Shown piece after piece: positions 2,491-58,751 of a DNA stretch of 64,000 nt. Positions within the stretch are counted from its first letter, which is position 1. The number at the start of each line of letters is the position of its first letter. Both the position numbers and the translations under genes were made by a program. Source of the DNA: Eledone cirrhosa (Eukaryota); contig OZ024742.1 of assembly GCA_964016885.1 (NCBI GenBank), positions 247,752,001 through 247,816,000 on the forward strand. The letters are read 5' to 3'. Below the pieces are notes generated by a model, which searched no databases, was not told the DNA's origin, and was given only the letters and a program-made list of their open reading frames with translations.

Positions 2491-2566
2491 AAATATAAAG
2501 AGAAAAGAAATGGCTGTGTAGTTGCTATTTAAGGTAACTTAAAATGCAGTGGGAATACGAAGAAGG

Positions 2567-2636
<70 letters not shown>

Positions 2637-2958
2637 TGTATATAGATATATAGAAATAGATAAATATACACGGGTGTGTATGATTGTGTATAGAAGATTA
2701 TATTAATAAAAGGAATTCCAACTTTGTCTGATTTACTCGTTTTATTTACAATGCTTTAAAACGTATAATGGTATTAGAATTAAATAGTAATTAAATAGCA
2801 ATCTTCGGTCATATTCCGTGGTGAGTCAGGTTTGCAATTTTCGAGCAGTATCAAGGAAACGATTAATATATGTATATGTATACCGAAAACAATAGGCTCG
2901 ATATAAACGATTAATATACGAATATACATATATATATACATATATATATATATATACA

Positions 2959-3099
2959 TAACGAAGGAAATGTGGTAAGGAACCAGATGGACCATAACGC
3001 ACCAAAGTACTCAATACTTGAGGTAGTAGAGTGGGTATTAGGAACCAGTAAGACCCCGACAGCTGAGCTCAAGCCGTTTCGACGGCTAATTCTGGACTC
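2959..3099 (-). mobile_element. Family A short TA-inserted element (3' half of HHR plus subterminal motif)
   Basis: Flanked by (TA)n and homologous to 20034-20168, 30980-31173, 34502-34615, 39634-39770 and 53200-53242. Minus strand reads GAAA-CGGCT-tgagctc-AGCTG-TC-ggggtc. Confidence 0.75.
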
Positions 3100-3129
3100 A
3101 TATATATATATATATATATACGTATATAC

Positions 3130-3202
<73 letters not shown>

Positions 3203-3204
3203 CG

Positions 3205-3297
<93 letters not shown>

Positions 3298-3769
3298 GTA
3301 TATATATATATATATATGTATATACGTATATTAATCGTTTATATCGAGCCTATTGTTTTCGGTATACATATATTAATCGTTTCCTTGATGCTGCTCGCTA
3401 GAAGAGCCCTGTTGTAGTAAGGCACTGCCTTATTAAATATCTTGGTCGGTCCCATCCAGCCTTCTCACTGTTATTGGATTTCCACTGCTTTTTTTTTTAC
3501 TTTTGTCCATGTCAGGAGTGTAGCCGTACTCAGGATGCTTCGTCAACTGAGGGTTTGGAGGCTATTTAACCCATAGTTTGTGTGGAAGGTTTTTGATTCT
3601 GAGGAGTTCATCCACTCTTACAACAGCTCTTGATTTTTGTGCCACTGTGGTTCCCCGTACCGTCCTCACCAGACCAGGGTCTGGTCTGGGATCCGCTTTA
3701 GCCTTCGACCAGTCGAACATCAAGTAGGCTATACGGGGTTACATGATACAAGTATCAGGCAGAAGCCTG

Positions 3770-3886
3770 ACTTGACCGAATCACGTTGAAAAACCGATTC
3801 TGGTCCGATCACCAACTTTAAGCATTATCTAACCTAGTTAGTACTTAGATGGGTGACCATTTGGTAAACCTAACAGTAAGGTGGCA
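3770..3886 (+). pseudogene. Degenerate 5S rRNA copy (pseudogene or 5S-derived SINE head)
   Basis: GACC..TCACGTTGAAAAACCGATTCTGGTCCGATCACC..TTAAGCA..GTTAGTACTTAGATGGGTGACC follows the metazoan 5S rRNA sequence, including the internal control region, with many substitutions. Confidence 0.8.
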
Positions 3887-4322
3887 TGAATCTCTCATAA
3901 TATATTTAAGTTCTTCAGTCTGTTTCTCGTAGGGTTTATATGAATCGATGTCCATATATATTTATGTGTATATATAAGCGAAGTTATTCTATAGCACCGG
4001 TAAGTCCACAACTATAACAGTAGCAAGTACATTGTTGCTGTAGTGTTGCATCAGAGGCTATTTGTATCAGAAATGAAATTGACGAAATATTTTATATAAA
4101 TATGATTCGCTTTAATTACTTGGAAAATATATGACAGATATTTCTTATTTATGGAATATTGGTGAAAGCTTTAGCAATGATGCTTCTAACGGGAAGAAAC
4201 GAAATAAATTTTATTGCCTTTTGAGGCTGATTTGGCTAATATCATATCATATCATATCTTATCTTATCTATCTATCTGTCTATCTCTCTCTCTATGTATC
4301 TATCTATCTATCCATCCATTTA

Positions 4323-4366
<44 letters not shown>

Positions 4367-4800
4367 ATGTTGTTGTAGATATTACTAAATTATAGAATTT
4401 TACATAACAAACATTTATAGATGTGCCTGGAAGCTCTCCATGTTGGTATAGAGTGATATTCATTATGATTATTGGTTTCATTGGGATTCTGAATGTTGCC
4501 TCTTATGGTTCTTTCACGTCCTATTCAACTGCATATATACATGTATTAATTAATTTGTTTTTTGATAGGTGTCATTCACATCTTGTGAAATAAGTCAAAG
4601 TTTATAGTAAAACTATGATCAAGATTTTTTCGTAAAACCCAATTAAATATTGCGGTCAAAACAGCGGCTAAATTACATTCATAATATGTGATCAGAAAGA
4701 GATTGGTCAGGCTGGTTTCCGTTGGCTTCTTTCGGTAACAACAAATGTTCATGCGCTTGAACATATTAACATCTGTTTGTCTACTTTCCATAAGAATGCG

Positions 4801-4965
4801 AAGGCGGTCATATGTTGCATAGAATTACAGCCCTTTACGTTCTGATCAAATCCCGCTGAAGTTTGCTTTGCTTTTCAGCCTTACGGCGTAGATAAAATAT
4901 AGTACCAGTAACGCATTGGAGTCAATTTAATTGTCTTTCGCATCCAGCTTGGCCTTGCGTTTAAA
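4801..4965 (+). mobile_element. tRNA-derived Nin/Deu-domain SINE (degenerate)
   Basis: AGGCGG head, TCAAATCCCGC B-box-like motif, TTTGCTTTTCAGCCTTACGGCGTAGATAAAATATAGTACCAG core and GGCCTTG tail, as in the other copies. A second partial copy lies at ~5140-5255. Confidence 0.7.
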
Positions 4966-20033: not shown

Positions 20034-20168
20034 AACGAAGGAAGTGTGGTAAGGAACTAGATGGAACAAAACTCACCAGAGTACTCAATACTTAGGGTAG
20101 TAGAGTGGGTAATAGGAAAATGTTCAAGACCCCGACCGCAGAGCTCAAACTGTTTCGACGGCTATTTA
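20034..20168 (-). mobile_element. Family A short element
   Basis: Homologous to 2959-3099 and ends in (TA)n. Confidence 0.75.
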
Positions 20169-20170
20169 TT

Positions 20171-20813
<643 letters not shown>

Positions 20814-26971: not shown

Positions 26972-27150
26972 GTTATTCCGGGTTGAATCGGAGGTAACCA
27001 CAGTAAGTAAGGTACTCAATACATAGCAGAGTATAAAAGTTTTAATATAGATGAGATTCTACAGGACTAGAACTGTTTCATTCTTTAGAAATCAGCAAGA
27101 TTCCTGATGATTTCTAAAGAATGAAACAGTTCTAGTCCTGTAGAATCTCA

Positions 27151-30942: not shown

Positions 30943-30979
<37 letters not shown>

Positions 30980-31170
30980 GAAAAAGTATGACCCCGACGG
31001 CAGAGCACAAGCCGTTTCGACGGCTATTTCTTGAGTCCAGAAATAGCCGTCGAAACGGCTTGAGCTCTGCCGTCGGGGTCATACTTTTTTCTATTACCCA
31101 CTCTAATACCCTAAGTATTGAGTACTCTGGTGCGTTATGGTCCATCTGGTTACTTACTACATTTCCTTCG

Positions 31171-31384: not shown

Positions 31385-31562
<178 letters not shown>

Positions 31563-31935
31563 TATTTACGTATCGAGAAAGAGAAAAAAAGAGGAGGATA
31601 GGTGATACATATAGTTATTTGCCAAGTAGCGTATGCCAAAGGTGCTCGATACTAGTGCCGGCAGTATTAAATATTCGAAGTGTTAATATTTAGTGGGCTA
31701 GAGAGTTAGCAGAGCGTAAGCACGTGGGAAAGTAAAAATCGGAGAATAGACCGTTAAAACATGTTTATTTAACTGTTTGTCTGAGGCTGGGTCTGGTACG
31801 CAAGGATTGTTTCCTGGGTGTTATTTTGCAGCGCCTGCCCGCCGGGGTGTTAAGACTTGTTGCAGGGAGATCCGGTGTACGGTTTCACTCCTCATCCTTA
31901 ACCTATCTGAAGAAGGATATTTTTAAGCGATGTGT

Positions 31936-33020
31936 TCAACTTATCGCTGTTTCAGCTCTGCTGATGATGAGCTCGTGGGGTGCAGTTATGATGTGGTAGA
32001 GCTCCATGAGGCAAAGATCGCATTTCCTCTTGAAGTTGTACGGTGCAGCCCTGCCGACAATCTCCCAGTGCGTGGAGAAGCTGATGTTTAAGTCCTTTAG
32101 TGATGTGATGTAGTCCGCGAGTGAAGTGGAGTGCCTTAGTTTTCTATTTGTGAAAGAGTGGAGATGTGTTCGAAACCTAATTTTGAACGGGCCGGAGGTA
32201 GCCCCTATATAATGTTTAACGCTATTGTGGCTGGTAATAGTGCACCTATATATAACCCTATCAGTCAAGCTGTATCCTCTAAGGGGGCAGCGTCCTCTGT
32301 CGCGGCAGTTGCAATTTCTGTCGCGGTTCCGTCTATTTCCCACGGTAAGGCTATCATTGTTGCTGCCTACGTTGTTACCTACGCTACCGCAGCTGTCGTT
32401 AGCACCATTACAACCCTCAGCACGCGGGGTGGTGCGATTGTTATTCCGCACGTCATGTCCTGCATGGTCTCCAGTCATATTGCGGTTATGCTGGTTGCGT
32501 CTGCGGATGCCGTTGCCAACACTATTGGATGCTGCCAGGGAGTTGTTAAGGCCGATATAGTTATTGTCAGGTGTAGGTGCGTCTGTGTCGAGGTGCTGTG
32601 TCTTGGTGATCTTACTGTGGTTCGTTGTTCCTATGATGTCTGCTAGGTTAGGAGTAGTAGAGAAGGATATTTTTATATTGTTCCTATTAAGAATTTTTCT
32701 ATACCTATGGTTGGGCGGGAATTTCTTCTGTAAGGCTTCGAAGAAAATCCGGGGTATGTTGGAGGCCACACTCCGAGAATAGGGGGGTGGAACCATAGGA
32801 CGTTACGGTGGCGATTACGTGTCCTTGTACTTTTGCTACGGGTGGTTCCATCTAGGTGACCGCTCTTATGTGTGTTAATGCGCAGTCGCCCGTTCGGTGC
32901 CCCTTTCACTTTATGCTCGGGTGCACTCTTCCTACCTCTTCCATGTTTATGTACACGAAGATGTTGGTTGGAAGGCATTGGTAGTAGGCCGTCGCCTTTG
33001 TTGGAACACTTGTGATTATT
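31936..33020 (-). pseudogene. PLE C-terminal linker plus GIY-YIG endonuclease, with one frameshift in a C run at ~32785
   Basis: RNVLWFHPP/YSRSV..., ILNRNNIKISFSTTPN, CNCRDRGRCPL (CxCx5C), VIYRC...HYIGATSGPFKIRF, STSLADYI...W, KCDLCLME. Confidence 0.88.
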
Positions 33021-33023
33021 TAT

Positions 33024-33063
33024 GCCCTTGAGAAGCCCAACTGGGCGAAACGTACGTAGGTGC
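33024..33063 (+). ncRNA. Minimal type-I hammerhead ribozyme, U3:A8 variant
   Basis: GCCC-TTGAGAA-GCCC aact GGGC-GAAA-CGTACG-TA-GG(t)GC. Confidence 0.7.
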
Positions 33064-33117
33064 TGTTTTAAATAAACATGTTTTAACGGTCTATTCTCCG
33101 ATTCTTTACTTTCCCAC

Positions 33118-33179
<62 letters not shown>

Positions 33180-33837: not shown

Positions 33838-34488
33838 TATATGAAAGACGTAAAATAAGAAAATTATATAAATTAATATACTTACTAATATTTCACTCCA
33901 ACTAATTAGTTTCTGAAAGGGAATAAACATGGTTTCCAAATGGAAAGCATGGAAAAGCCACTCGTCATCAGGAAGTCTGTTCTCAGCTAAGTTCCCAGGC
34001 GATACGTGGACACAGGGAACTTATACAAAAATAATTCAGTGGATGGAAAAAAAGCAAGCGTGGACTAAATTCAAAGACATTGAAAAAATCACTGCCTACT
34101 TGGTCGGTGGCAAATTCAAAAGAATCAATCATGTGACATCGAGGTTAATCAGTGAGGAGTGGGGTGAATTATTTTTAATTAACCTCGATGTCACGTGATT
34201 GATTCTTTTGAATTTGCCACCGACCAAGTAGACAGTGATTTTTTCAATGTCTTGGAATTTAGTCCACGCTTGCTTTTTTCCATCCACTGAATTATTTTTG
34301 TATAAGTTCCCTGTGTCCACGCATCGCCTGGGAACTTAACTGAGAACAGACTTCCTGATGACGAGAGGCTTTTCCTTGCTTTCCATTTGGAAACCATATT
34401 TATTCCCTTTCAGAAACTAATTAGTTGGAGTGAAATTTTAGTAAGTAAGTTAATTTTTATAATTTTCTTATTTTACGTTTTTCATATA
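33838..34488. repeat. Long inverted repeat (~310-bp arms, 28-nt loop)
   Basis: 33838-34149 is the reverse complement of 34178-34488 with scattered substitutions. Each arm contains CTGATGA-stem-GAAAC. Confidence 0.95.
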
Positions 34489-34511
34489 TATATATATATA
34501 TAAGAAAAAGT

Positions 34512-34613
34512 ATGACCCCAACGGCAAAGCTCAAGCCATTTCGACGGCTATTTCTGGACTAAATTAGAATGTTTAGCCTGGTGAATAAATAGCCGAACTT
34601 GTCAAGGGGGCAT
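34512..34613 (-). ncRNA. Hammerhead ribozyme, U3:A8 variant with long stem II (longest family A copy, 34502-34912)
   Basis: ATGcCCCC-TTGACAA-g..CGGCTATTT...AAATAGCCG..c-GAAA-TGGC..GCCG-TT-GGGGtCAT. Other family A copies read GTC at the cleavage triplet. Confidence 0.65.
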
Positions 34614-34908: not shown

Positions 34909-34985
<77 letters not shown>

Positions 34986-35128
34986 AATAAATTAAAAGAT
35001 GGTTAAAAAAGTTCCATATATATATTATTATGCGCATTTCGAAAACAACATCATCCTGGGACAAAAATTGTGTCTCATCAGATAAAATATGGTAACATGA
35101 TATGAGGCCTAAAAACACTTGTGAACAA

Positions 35129-36108
35129 GAAAGGGCTGGATATCCAGACAAAATTAGATATAATAAGGAAACTAATCTTGGCAGAACTCTAGTAATGTAG
35201 CTAGTAATAATCATACCACTAACAAAAGGAGGAGACCTAGATATAAAAACATCCTTTGGTACAACGATCCCTTCTCTCTGTCGGTTATTAATAATATCTC
35301 TAAATTATTTGTTAGGGCTTTATATAACAGCCCCCCCCCTTCACATATATATAGCAAGTTTTTCAATAAGCATACTACTAAATTCTCATATTCCCCTACT
35401 TCCAACATTTCTAAAATTATCTCAAGGCATAATTCTAAAATACTAAATAATAACTCATATGCATCCCACCATGAGAGTCATAATAATAACACTATAAGGC
35501 CCGACGTCAATGTAAACTCTAGGCAAATTAACACAAGTATAAATACCACGTCAAACGTAATTTTGAGGAATGCTTCAAATAGTATTGTAAATCTGGAAAC
35601 TTTAGCACCTCCTTTAGTTAATTCCACCACTCCAGTTCCTAATATAATTAATCCTGGGCTACTTGCAAATAACTCTGTAAATAATCTTAATCGTAAATGC
35701 AACTGACCTATTAGAACTAATTGTCCTCTTAGTAATTTCTGTCTCTATAAAAACCAAGTATACGAATATAAAGTGGTACCTACATTGGCTCTACTTCTAC
35801 CTCTTTTAAAGCAAGATTCTATAACCATTCTTCAATGTTTAAATATCCACTTTAAAGGACCAGCACCGCACTCTCAGAAATTATTTGGTCCTTAAAAGAC
35901 AAAAAACATTAATTACGAAATTTCTTGGCGTAAAATTTACAACGCTTCTCCATACTCCAATGCTTCCATATCTAGTGTTTGTAATTTATGTCTAGTTGAA
36001 AAAATTTACCATTATCTCGAATTTCAACTCTATAATGAATAGAAGAACAGATTTATTTGGTCATTGTAATCATAAATCCTTCAGAACCTTTCACAAAGTA
36101 TATAGCTA
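35129..36108 (+). pseudogene. PLE RT-thumb end plus GIY-YIG endonuclease remnant (absent from the ORF track)
   Basis: ERAGYPDKIRY / KRRRPRYKNILWYNDPFSLSV...FFNKHTTKFSYSPTSNISKIISRHNSKIL...KCN*PIRTNCPL..CLYKNQVYEY / YIGSTSTSFKARFYNH...STALSEIIWSLKDK / YEISW...VCNLCLVEK...HCNH. Confidence 0.88.
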
Positions 36109-36887
36109 ATGCCCTATAACATATTCCACGAACAACGATTAATTTTTTACACATATTTTTTTACACACATTTTTTATACATATTTCATTATATTCTACAA
36201 TGTATTAATTCAGTTTTCTCAGCATATTTTAAGCCTTTTACCTTTTTTCGATAGCCTTAAATTTTCGTTCAAACCTTCGTAGATTTTGTTACCAAACTAT
36301 GACGTCATATGTTTTTTCTACGTTTATAAATCATTCTAGCAATTTCCTTTATTTACTTATTGATATAAAATAAAAATTAAATAGTATACCCCATATATAT
36401 ATATTTTTAATAGAAATTTTTAATTTTGACATAGACTATTTTTATTTTTATTTTTTTTTATTGTATTTTATTTTATTTTATATTAAAAACCTTTTTTATA
36501 ATTATTTTTATTTAATTTTATTTTATTTTATTAATACATTTTTACACTTCTTAATCCAAGTTTTCAAATAATATTCCCAGTTTCTATATTTTAGACCTCT
36601 AATATTTGAAAACCATCGATAATATTCGCACATACACCTAATCAATTTACTTTTTAGCCGTTATTTACAGCTGTTTTCATTTTGACAGCGTTCTTGATCA
36701 AAAAGCTCTCTTTCTCTTCCTTCTTTCATTTTTCCTTTTTTTCCTCTCTTCTATTCTTTTTCCTTTCTCTCCTTCTTCTTTCCTTTTCTGCTATTTTCCT
36801 ATCTTTTTCTTACTCTTATATTTCTGTCATATGTAGACGACACTTTCTTGTTGACAAGTGTTTTTAGGCCTCATATCATGTTACCTT

Positions 36888-36954
36888 ATTTTATCTGATG
36901 AGGACAGTATTTTGTCCCAGGATGATGTTGTTTTCGAAATGCGCATAATAAAAT
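36888..36954 (+). ncRNA. Type-I hammerhead ribozyme in the PLE 3' pseudo-LTR (family C)
   Basis: ATTTTAT-CTGATGA-[extended stem II]-GAAA-TGCGCA-TA-ATAAAAT. Confidence 0.8.
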
Positions 36955-37080
36955 ATATGGAACTTTTTTAACCATCTTTTAATTTCTTCTTTAATATACT
37001 CCAGTTCTACCAACTGTTGAGTACTACTTATCTGATATATGCATAGTTTTATTTTCTACAATATTACTCACCTTCTACAT

Positions 37081-39980: not shown

Positions 39981-40114
<134 letters not shown>

Positions 40115-40123
40115 CATGTAATT

Positions 40124-40638
40124 TAGAATATGCTTCAATAAATGAAGTAATTCCGTCGGAAAGGTCCAGGAAAAAAGAGTGCTCTATGTAGGTTACAAGA
40201 GCTTAATAGTTATGTAATAAACAACATAAGGTGGTGTATGTTGGTTAAATTCCTGAAAACTGTAGAGTGCTCAACTCATCGGGCTTGAAGGTGCCAATCA
40301 TATATGTAATATAGAATATGCTTCTATAAATGAAGTAATTCCGTCGGAAAGGTCCAGGAGAAAAGAGTGCTCTATGTAGGTTACAGAGCTTAATAGTTAT
40401 GTAATAAACAACATAAGGTGGTGTATGTTGGTTAAATTCCTGAAAAAATGTAGAGTGCTCAACTAATGGGGCTGGAAGGTGCCAATCATATATGTAATAT
40501 AGAATATGCTTCAATAAATGAAATAATTCCGTCGGAAAGGTCCAGGAGAAAAGAGAGATCTATGTAGGTTACAGAGCTTAATAGTTATGTAATAAACAAC
40601 ATAAGGCGGTGTATGTTGGTTAAATTCCTGAAAACTGT
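40124..40638 (-). repeat. 188-bp tandem repeat (~2.7 units) adjoining (TA)n
   Basis: TAGAATATGCTTC starts at 40124, 40312 and 40500. The full units carry GTTGAGCACTCTAC on the minus strand. Confidence 0.9.
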
Positions 40639-57556: not shown

Positions 57557-57974
57557 AAATTTTGAGTATGAGTTGGTTATTTAGCGACACCCAGTATGCA
57601 GGTTGGAGCACTCAACGAGGTGCGCAGGTTAGTTTGTTTACTCCGGAGTAATGTAAAAATAAGAAGTGTAAGTCATATATATATATATGTATATATGTAT
57701 ATATACATATATACATGGAATAGAATGAAATTTCTCACTCTTAGTACGGCACTTACTGTACGTCTGTATACATATATGTATGTACGTATACATACATACT
57801 TACATTTAAGTAAGTGCCGTACTAAGAGTGAGAAATTTCATTCTATTCCATTTATCGTTTTCGGTGCGCCTGGCCGACTGAACTCACTCGGTATGCAAAT
57901 TAGGCTGCTCAGCCGTTAATTTTCATAAGGAAAGTATATACTTTCGGACGTTCAACCATCTGGCAGAAAGGTAT

Positions 57975-58017
57975 ACGGTGCTGACGATAGCTAATAAGCT
58001 TGAAACTAGTACATCGT
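57975..58017 (+). ncRNA. Minimal type-I hammerhead ribozyme
   Basis: ACGGTG-CTGACGA-t agc taataa gct t-GAAA-CTAG-TA-CATCGT. Predicted cleavage after 58011. Confidence 0.85.
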
Positions 58018-58406
58018 TCCTGTGTCAGTGTTGAACAAAAAGGTGACGTGGTTGCCTAAACACTGTACGGCGTAATTCAGGCTGTTTGTTTGTTTACAAA
58101 CGAACAAACCGAGCATTATAATAAATGTTCGGTAAACTGATACGTGTATATATATATGTGTGCCTGTATGTATATATATACATGCTACTGTACGTCTGTA
58201 TACATATATGTATGTACGTATACATACATACTTACATTTAAGTAGGTGCCGTACTAAGAGTGAGAAATTTCATTCAATTCCATTTATCGTTTTCGGTGCG
58301 CCTGGCCGACTGAACTCACTCGGTATGCAAATTAGGCTGCTCAGCCGTTAATTTTCATAAGGAAAGTATATACTTTCGGACGTTCAACCATCTGGCAGAA
58401 AGGTAT

Positions 58407-58449
58407 ACGGTGCTGACGATAGCTAATAGGATTGAAACTAGTACATCGT
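58407..58449 (+). ncRNA. Minimal type-I hammerhead ribozyme (stem II weakened)
   Basis: ACGGTG-CTGACGA-tagctaataggatt-GAAA-CTAG-TA-CATCGT. Predicted cleavage after 58443. Confidence 0.7.
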
Positions 58450-58751
58450 TCCTGTGTCGGTGTTGAACAAAAAGGTGACGTGGTTGCCTAAACACTGTAC
58501 GGCGTAATTCAGGCTGTTTGTTTGTTTACAAACGAACAAACCGAGCATTATAATAAATGTTCAGTAAACTGATACGTGCATATATATATGTGTGCCTGTA
58601 TGTATATATATACATGCTACTGTACGTCTGTATACATATATGTATATACATACATACTTACATTACATATATACATATATATTAACAATCTTAATAAATG
58701 GAAAATATATTTATAATACCTAATTTACAATATCTTTATAATACCATATTG

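What the first reader, a model, noticed from the sequence alone, without database searches (positions are those of the whole stretch)
57716..58665. 432-bp tandem with one HHR per unit: candidate circRNA-producing retrozyme
Seen: two canonical cores (CTGACGA...GAAA-CTAG-TA) lie exactly 432 nt apart in near-identical non-coding units with a short inverted 5' cap. A dispersed, diverged monomer lies at 20237-20671. The palindromic CTAG would let the two HHRs pair as a double hammerhead. Inference: cleavage after 58011 and 58443 would release a 432-nt monomer that could circularise and act as a rolling template for a PLE RT, as described for metazoan non-LTR retrozymes. Stem II of the second copy is weakened, so this particular locus may be less active.
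Basis: partly seen in the sequence, partly recalled or inferred. Interest (0 to 1): 0.82.

Follow-up and report, generated by a model that had tools for sequence, protein, structure and literature searches.

The report
Hammerhead repeat with Penelope insertion scars
This is a two-copy, 432-base non-coding repeat with a hammerhead-ribozyme motif in each copy, a new member of the known animal "retrozymes"; its ends match the marks left by Penelope-like retrotransposons, which likely copied it from a circular or multi-unit RNA.

Summary
A 432-bp unit repeats 2.1 times (57754-58664, 97% identical), with a type I hammerhead core in each unit and an 86%-identical monomer at 20237-20671. Such elements are described as non-LTR retrozymes (PMC7229834; bioRxiv 2026.07.22.740005).

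The "cap" is an exact inverted copy of a 42-43-nt tail (57809-57851), and the forward array stops about 2 nt before that tail. This fits the two reverse-transcription starts that flank the Penelope-like element (PLE) tail (PMC11167929). Both loci sit in (TA)n, and two coding Hydra-type PLE remnants in the window have the same inverted cap. The family is abundant: 16,680 of 17.1 million contigs of one run lay on one unit.

Corrections: stem II opens with a U·U mismatch, stem III needs a partner copy, copy 2's stem II is broken, and the monomer's core has G8 replaced by U. Neither insertion ends at a cleavage site, so a cleaved linear monomer was not the template. Cleavage, transcription and circles are untested. 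Verdict: new member of a known kind, with a useful PLE footprint.

The parts
57715..57757 (-). Inverted copy of the 42-43-nt tail ('cap'); likely the short cDNA from the downstream RT start; shares TACT with the array at the junction
   Evidence: Exact reverse complement of 57809-57851; role inferred from PMC8557442 and PMC11167929
57754..58664 (+). Forward array, 2.1 units of 432 bp, non-coding, 38% GC; ends about 2 nt before where the tail would start
57809..57851 (+). Tail, unit 1
58241..58283 (+). Tail, unit 2 (2 differences from the cap)
57960..58028 (+). Type I hammerhead motif 1: core 57981-58011, extended bulged stem I, 4-bp stem II after U-U with loop AAUA, palindromic ACUAGU stem III; predicted cut after 58011
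58392..58460 (+). Type I hammerhead motif 2: core intact, stem II broken by two derived changes (no predicted hairpin); predicted cut after 58443
20237..20671 (+). Dispersed monomer, exactly one unit from tail end to tail end, (TA)n on both sides; core has G8>U, likely inactive
57675..57714 (.). (TA)n-rich target, left flank; possible 13-bp target-site duplication 57704-57716 / 58664-58676 (low complexity, weak)
58665..58681 (.). TA-rich right flank

Best explanation
This is a non-coding, hammerhead-bearing 432-bp repeat (non-LTR retrozyme) of an animal genome that was likely inserted into a (TA)n tract by the enzyme of a Penelope-like element, likely of the Hydra clade. Shown by sequence: tandem units, hammerhead core in each, inverted tail, (TA)n flanks, many dispersed relatives. 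Inferred: the PLE endonuclease nicked both target strands, and reverse transcription started at the two ends of the 42-nt tail. One start gave the short inverted cap; the other gave a 911-nt cDNA running through both ribozyme sites. That long copy needs a circular monomer or an uncleaved multimer as template. Predicted: multimer transcripts of intact copies cut themselves as double hammerheads and are ligated into ~432-nt circles. This particular locus would cleave poorly, because in the double form copy 2's broken stem II belongs to the ribozyme that cuts site 58011.
For: Period, cores and monomer. 9 strict cores vs 0 in 20 of 20 shuffles. Stem I pairs: 14 of 15 in units 1 and 2, 15 of 15 in the monomer, with differences mostly pair-preserving. 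Common family variants 57978G>A and 57967A>G improve stem I. Cap equals tail exactly and the array ends about 2 nt before the tail. This matches 'tail = sequence between the two RT start sites' and extension of both strands (PMC11167929), and the partial-tandem, inverted-copy, 30-40-bp-tail pattern (PMC8557442). Two coding PLE remnants in the window carry inverted caps at (TA)n (33119-33068 and 34976-35133). One has the Hydra CxCX5C linker, and Hydra elements insert into (TA)n and carry hammerheads. Longest ATG ORF 47 aa; no PLE protein match better than E 0.97. 16,680 of 17,142,217 contigs of run X1 lay on one unit. Both units share an allele (57891 G) that is under 1% of summed X1 depth, which fits one progenitor template.
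Against: No cleavage or RNA data. Rfam does not recognise the motif. The isolated motif's MFE pairs the core with the palindrome in an inactive fold, and the double hammerhead lies 7 kcal/mol above the free MFE. 8 of 9 Xenopus dimers did not cleave. Hammerhead cleavage was not needed for PLE insertion, and no RNA-seq ends were seen at the site. No sequence link between this unit and any PLE in the window (best E 0.053). The units differ by 7 substitutions and a 6-bp deletion; 5 of 6 polarisable changes are in the downstream copy, which could mean non-identical units in the template.
Confidence: 0.68

Rival explanations
1. The unit is the pseudo-LTR of an autonomous PLE, and these loci are 5'-truncated insertions or solo-pLTR tandems with no RNA life cycle of their own.
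For: PLE insertions are mostly 5'-truncated partial tandems with hammerheads in the pLTR. The coding PLE at 35176-37000 has a hammerhead in its 3' repeat and in its inverted cap. Retrozymes and pLTRs are homologous in Xenopus.
Against: Two complete pLTR-length units with no coding remnant between them. None of the 24 loose-end rows shown (of 671) leads into obvious coding sequence (weak).
Confidence: 0.17
2. Same family and mobilisation, but the template is always a linear uncleaved multimer transcript from a tandem master locus; the hammerhead is vestigial or protein-gated and no circle is made.
For: PAc uses unprocessed RNA as its main substrate and its hammerhead needs protein. 8 of 9 dimers inactive. 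Differences are skewed to one unit. U-U opening pair and inactive local MFE.
Against: The monomer is exactly one unit from tail end to tail end, which a circle explains simply. None of the 40 variants shown (of 97) hits an invariant core base; N7 and loop II do vary. U10.1-U11.1 occurs in natural hammerheads and is the most active mismatch there (PMC3088659).
Confidence: 0.3
3. A monomer inserted first and was then duplicated locally in DNA (unequal crossover or slippage at the AT-rich segment), or the tandem is an assembly duplication of two alleles.
For: 97% identity is compatible with alleles; the cap matches unit 1's tail exactly and unit 2's with 2 differences; no long reads were available.
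Against: Flanks are not duplicated. Tail-to-head continuity, which a tail-ended monomer lacks, is present in other copies: an X1 contig spans 57824-57945, and X21 raw reads cover 57812-57843. A later duplication would still start from a more-than-unit-length, PLE-type insertion.
Confidence: 0.12

Closest known systems
Metazoan non-LTR retrozymes (Cervera & de la Pena 2020, PMC7229834: coral, Mytilus, axolotl)
   Same: Tandem non-coding units of a few hundred bp, GC below 45%, one type I hammerhead per unit, strongly self-paired predicted RNA, many copies.
   Different: 432 nt is just above the 170-400 nt RNAs reported; stem III is the short palindromic amphibian type; U10.1-U11.1; circRNA not shown here. 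The passages read do not describe an inverted tail.
Non-LTR retrozymes as non-autonomous PLE derivatives (Li, Clavereau & Pollet 2026, 10.64898/2026.07.22.740005)
   Same: Monomers, dimers and PLEs co-occur; same proposed partner.
   Different: Their evidence is co-occurrence and pLTR homology, mainly in vertebrates. Here it is the insertion geometry; pLTR homology was not found within this window.
EN+ Penelope-like elements, Hydra clade (Craig et al. 2021, PMC8557442) and PAc mechanism (Frangieh et al. 2024, PMC11167929)
   Same: Partial tandem, inverted 5' copy, ~40-bp tail, (TA)n target, hammerhead.
   Different: No ORF, so not autonomous; complete head-to-tail units.
Newt/axolotl satellite double hammerheads (PMC6155905, PMC7229834)
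   Same: Weak palindromic stem III predicted to pair between tandem copies.
   Different: Short dispersed arrays here; activity untested.

Membership tests
Non-LTR retrozyme | At least two consecutive tandem units, each with a type I hammerhead core | tested here: met
   Cores 57981-58011 and 58413-58443. Copy 2 has all core bases but failed my stem II filter.
Non-LTR retrozyme | Unit about 150-450 bp, GC below 45-50% | tested here: met
   432 bp, 38.4% GC
Non-LTR retrozyme | Non-coding | tested here: met
   Longest ATG ORF 47 aa; no PLE protein match better than E 0.97. PBS and PPT were not searched.
Non-LTR retrozyme | Multi-copy and dispersed | tested here: met
   Monomer in window; 16,680 contigs laid in run X1 (includes low-complexity matches at 58148-58179, not a copy number)
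Non-LTR retrozyme | Highly self-paired monomer | tested here: met
   -136.3 kcal/mol, z -5.3, 0 of 100 shuffles as stable; 66% paired as a circle; partly due to AT-rich palindromes; prediction only
Non-LTR retrozyme | Self-cleavage in vitro | not testable with these tools
   Only fold energies
Non-LTR retrozyme | Expression as linear and circular monomer RNA | not testable with these tools
   Only DNA or unlabelled runs could be laid
PLE-type insertion | Inverted 5' copy and 30-40-bp tail | tested here: met
   42-43-nt inverted tail; same layout at two coding PLE remnants
PLE-type insertion | (TA)n target | tested here: met
   Both loci; the window is very rich in (TA)n, so this alone is weak
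Autonomous PLE | ORF with RT and GIY-YIG endonuclease | tested here: not met
PLE pLTR derivative | Homology to the pLTR of a coding PLE | tested here: inconclusive
   No match to 5 PLE or hammerhead loci in the window; no whole genome held
Rfam hammerhead families | Covariance-model match | tested here: not met
   0 hits at gathering; no hammerhead among 96 hits at E<=10

The most novel reading that the evidence does not exclude
The insertions are fossils of a Hydra-clade PLE reverse transcriptase running around a covalently closed 432-nt RNA circle, primed twice at the tail edges. One exact lap gave the monomer and 2.1 laps gave the dimer. With thousands of copies, this family would let the rolling-circle model of animal retrozyme spread be tested from genome sequence alone and tie it to a named PLE clade.
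Probability: 0.25. Interest if true: 0.62.

Novelty: new member of a known kind. Interest (0 to 1): 0.34.

Why it matters
The class is known, including in a mollusc. Its mobiliser was left open in 2020 (PMC7229834, PMC7761336) and argued from homology in 2026. This locus adds a mechanical footprint, an inverted tail with ends at the two predicted RT starts in a (TA)n target, shared with coding PLE remnants nearby. Because the family is abundant, end mapping across copies could separate circular from linear templates.

Tried and rejected
No whole genome is held, so copies could not be counted.
Rfam found no hammerhead; the miRNA hits are generic hairpin matches below gathering.
No RNA holder listed among 23 runs; this is not evidence on expression.
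Exact-pattern scans found 0 matches in metagenome contigs and viral contigs.
Pfam named none of 3 PLE fragments at the curated cut-off; 3 unnamed homologues came.
Three look-ups of earlier findings returned nothing.
The read tool skipped 57716-57815 as repeat, so cap and head-to-tail joints could not be read. X21 read ends at 57898/57901/57918 coincide with AATT sites and are taken as restriction ends; the 57850 end is unexplained.
The depth step at the tail end (X1 64,234 to 305,081; X21 2,565 to 4,931) may mean many copies start there, but it is confounded by the skipped region and was not used as evidence.
The 13-bp target-site duplication is low-complexity; a 15-mer offset alternative occurs 46 times in the window, and a rough null gave 3%. 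Not relied on.
No match to my Pol III A/B box patterns.
Searches 'retrozyme/hammerhead/octopus' and 'hammerhead ribozyme + cephalopod' showed no paper on a cephalopod retrozyme, but the library is incomplete and the host is not established.

Full report
OBSERVATION. The tandem is real in the sequence. Lag 432 gives 96.4% matches against 40% for the next best lags, and the aligned copies are 57754-58238 and 58186-58664 at 97.3%. Hammerhead cores lie at 57981-58011, 58413-58443 and 20370-20400, and the monomer is 86% identical over 444 nt. A strict type I descriptor found 9 cores in 64 kb and none in any of 20 dinucleotide shuffles. It passed copy 1 but not copy 2 or the monomer. Rfam recognised none. 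The window is AT-rich and full of microsatellites, which points to an animal. I suspect an octopus from recalled repeat landscapes, but no call establishes this; the run index names only 'organism A'.

RIBOZYME ANATOMY. Stem I has 5 bp, a GGUAUA bulge and a 10-bp extension. 14 of 15 pairs form in both tandem copies and 15 of 15 in the monomer. Common family variants restore or strengthen pairs: 57978G>A turns G-U into A-U, and 57967A>G makes G-C. None of the 40 variants shown, of 97, hits an invariant core base; N7 and loop II vary. Stem II opens with U10.1-U11.1, then AGCU/AGCU with an AAUA loop. That mismatch occurs in natural hammerheads and is the most active mispair there (PMC3088659 passages), and two other cores in the window share it. 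Stem III is the palindrome ACUAGU. On the 57950-58470 transcript the double hammerhead scores -160.4 kcal/mol, two single ones -145.0 and the free fold -167.7. Copy 2's stem II has two derived changes and no predicted hairpin. By topology it belongs to the ribozyme that would cut 58011 (inference). The monomer has G8>U; G8 is the proposed general acid (PMC6155905 passage), so it is likely dead.

INSERTION ANATOMY. The cap (57715-57757) is the exact reverse complement of 57809-57851. The forward array ends at 58664, equivalent to about 57806, about 2 nt before that segment starts. The monomer ends at the 3' edge of the same segment and starts right after it, so it is one exact unit between (TA)n tracts. 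Craig et al. describe PLE insertions as partial tandems with an inverted 5' copy and a 30-40-bp tail (PMC8557442 passages and section 11). Frangieh et al. show that a PLE protein nicks and extends both strands at AT-rich DNA, and that the tail is the stretch between two RT starts (PMC11167929, parts 1-2 of 4). The simplest reading is two priming events: 42-43 nt from the tail's 3' edge and 911 nt from its 5' edge, joined at a 4-nt overlap (inference). Two coding PLE remnants in the window show the same layout: 31936-33119(-) with a 52-bp inverted cap 1 bp from (TA)n, and 35176-37000(+) with an inverted hammerhead-bearing cap at 34976-35133. The first has CNCRDRGRC, the CxCX5C linker of the (TA)n-targeting Hydra clade. 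The unit itself shares no significant sequence with them, so the partner is not identified.

TEMPLATE. Both insertions cross the predicted cleavage site, so a cleaved linear monomer cannot be the template. A circle or an uncleaved multimer can. For a circle: the exact unit length of the monomer, and a rare allele shared by both units (57891 G, under 1% of summed X1 depth). Against, or neutral: the units differ by 7 substitutions and a 6-bp deletion, with 5 of 6 polarisable changes downstream. PAc prefers unprocessed RNA and its hammerhead needs protein, and 8 of 9 Xenopus dimers did not cleave.

ABUNDANCE. One unit plus cap (57716-58185) was laid on 4 of the 23 listed runs. It attracted 16,680 of 17,142,217 contigs in X1, 1,261 of 762,587 in X4, 536 of 23,643,904 in X5 and 69,517 of 12,467,656 reads in X21. 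Part of this is the low-complexity stretch 58148-58179, and the tool states that depth is not a copy number. Still, X1 summed depth over the ribozyme is about 2.3 million, against 8-35 for 7 of the 8 X1 contigs listed (143 for the eighth), so the family is very abundant. An X1 contig spanning 57824-57945 and X21 reads show tail-to-head continuity in other copies. No long reads were available, so a local assembly duplication is unlikely but not excluded.

COMPARISON. It meets every sequence-level criterion of a non-LTR retrozyme that I could test (PMC7229834 passages and sections 14 and 17; bioRxiv 10.64898/2026.07.22.740005, parts 1-3 of 5). It fails the ORF criterion for an autonomous PLE. 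Cleavage and circRNA, the functional criteria, are untested. A 2020 review says animal retrozyme repeats show no conserved motif that reveals their mobiliser (PMC7761336 passages). An Octopus vulgaris repeat annotation lists recently active Penelope-like families and has 0 occurrences of 'ribozyme' (PMC13282606 passages). Supplements were not opened for any paper and may list related families or insertion structures.

VERDICT. New member of a known kind; interest 0.34. The added value is the PLE tail footprint, which makes the circle-versus-multimer question testable genome-wide (probability 0.25 for the rolling-circle reading, interest 0.62 if true).

Noticed in passing
window 31560-33119 (-): 5'-truncated Hydra-type PLE remnant (GIY-YIG region, CxCX5C linker, frameshifted) with a 52-bp inverted cap at (TA)n.
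   Followed up: partly
window 34976-37000: Degraded coding PLE remnant with a hammerhead at 36895-36947 in its 3' repeat and an inverted hammerhead-bearing copy at 35081-35029; a related core at 41409-41355 (-).
   Followed up: partly
window 33900-34426: Inverted pair of hammerhead cores, 34355-34426 (+) and 33971-33900 (-), with a long stem II and palindromic stem III ACTAATTAGT.
   Followed up: no
window 27104-27142 (+), 61549-61518 (-), 17963-17914 (-): Further type I hammerhead cores of other families; the first two also open stem II with U-U, and the 61549 one lies in nested inverted repeats. In all, 9 strict cores in 64 kb.
   Followed up: no
window 40112-40634: 188-bp tandem, 2.8 copies, 95% identical, next to (TA)n; no strict hammerhead found.
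   Followed up: no
window 20036-20170, 2940-3100, 30950-31170, 34505-34563: Another dispersed non-coding family with hairpins and inverted copies, usually bounded by (TA)n; one copy lies just upstream of the retrozyme monomer.
   Followed up: no
run X5, laid on window 57892-58120: A 226-nt contig with 8 differences at depth 10.7 in a run labelled as another organism; low copy, so possibly trace DNA or a relative.
   Followed up: no
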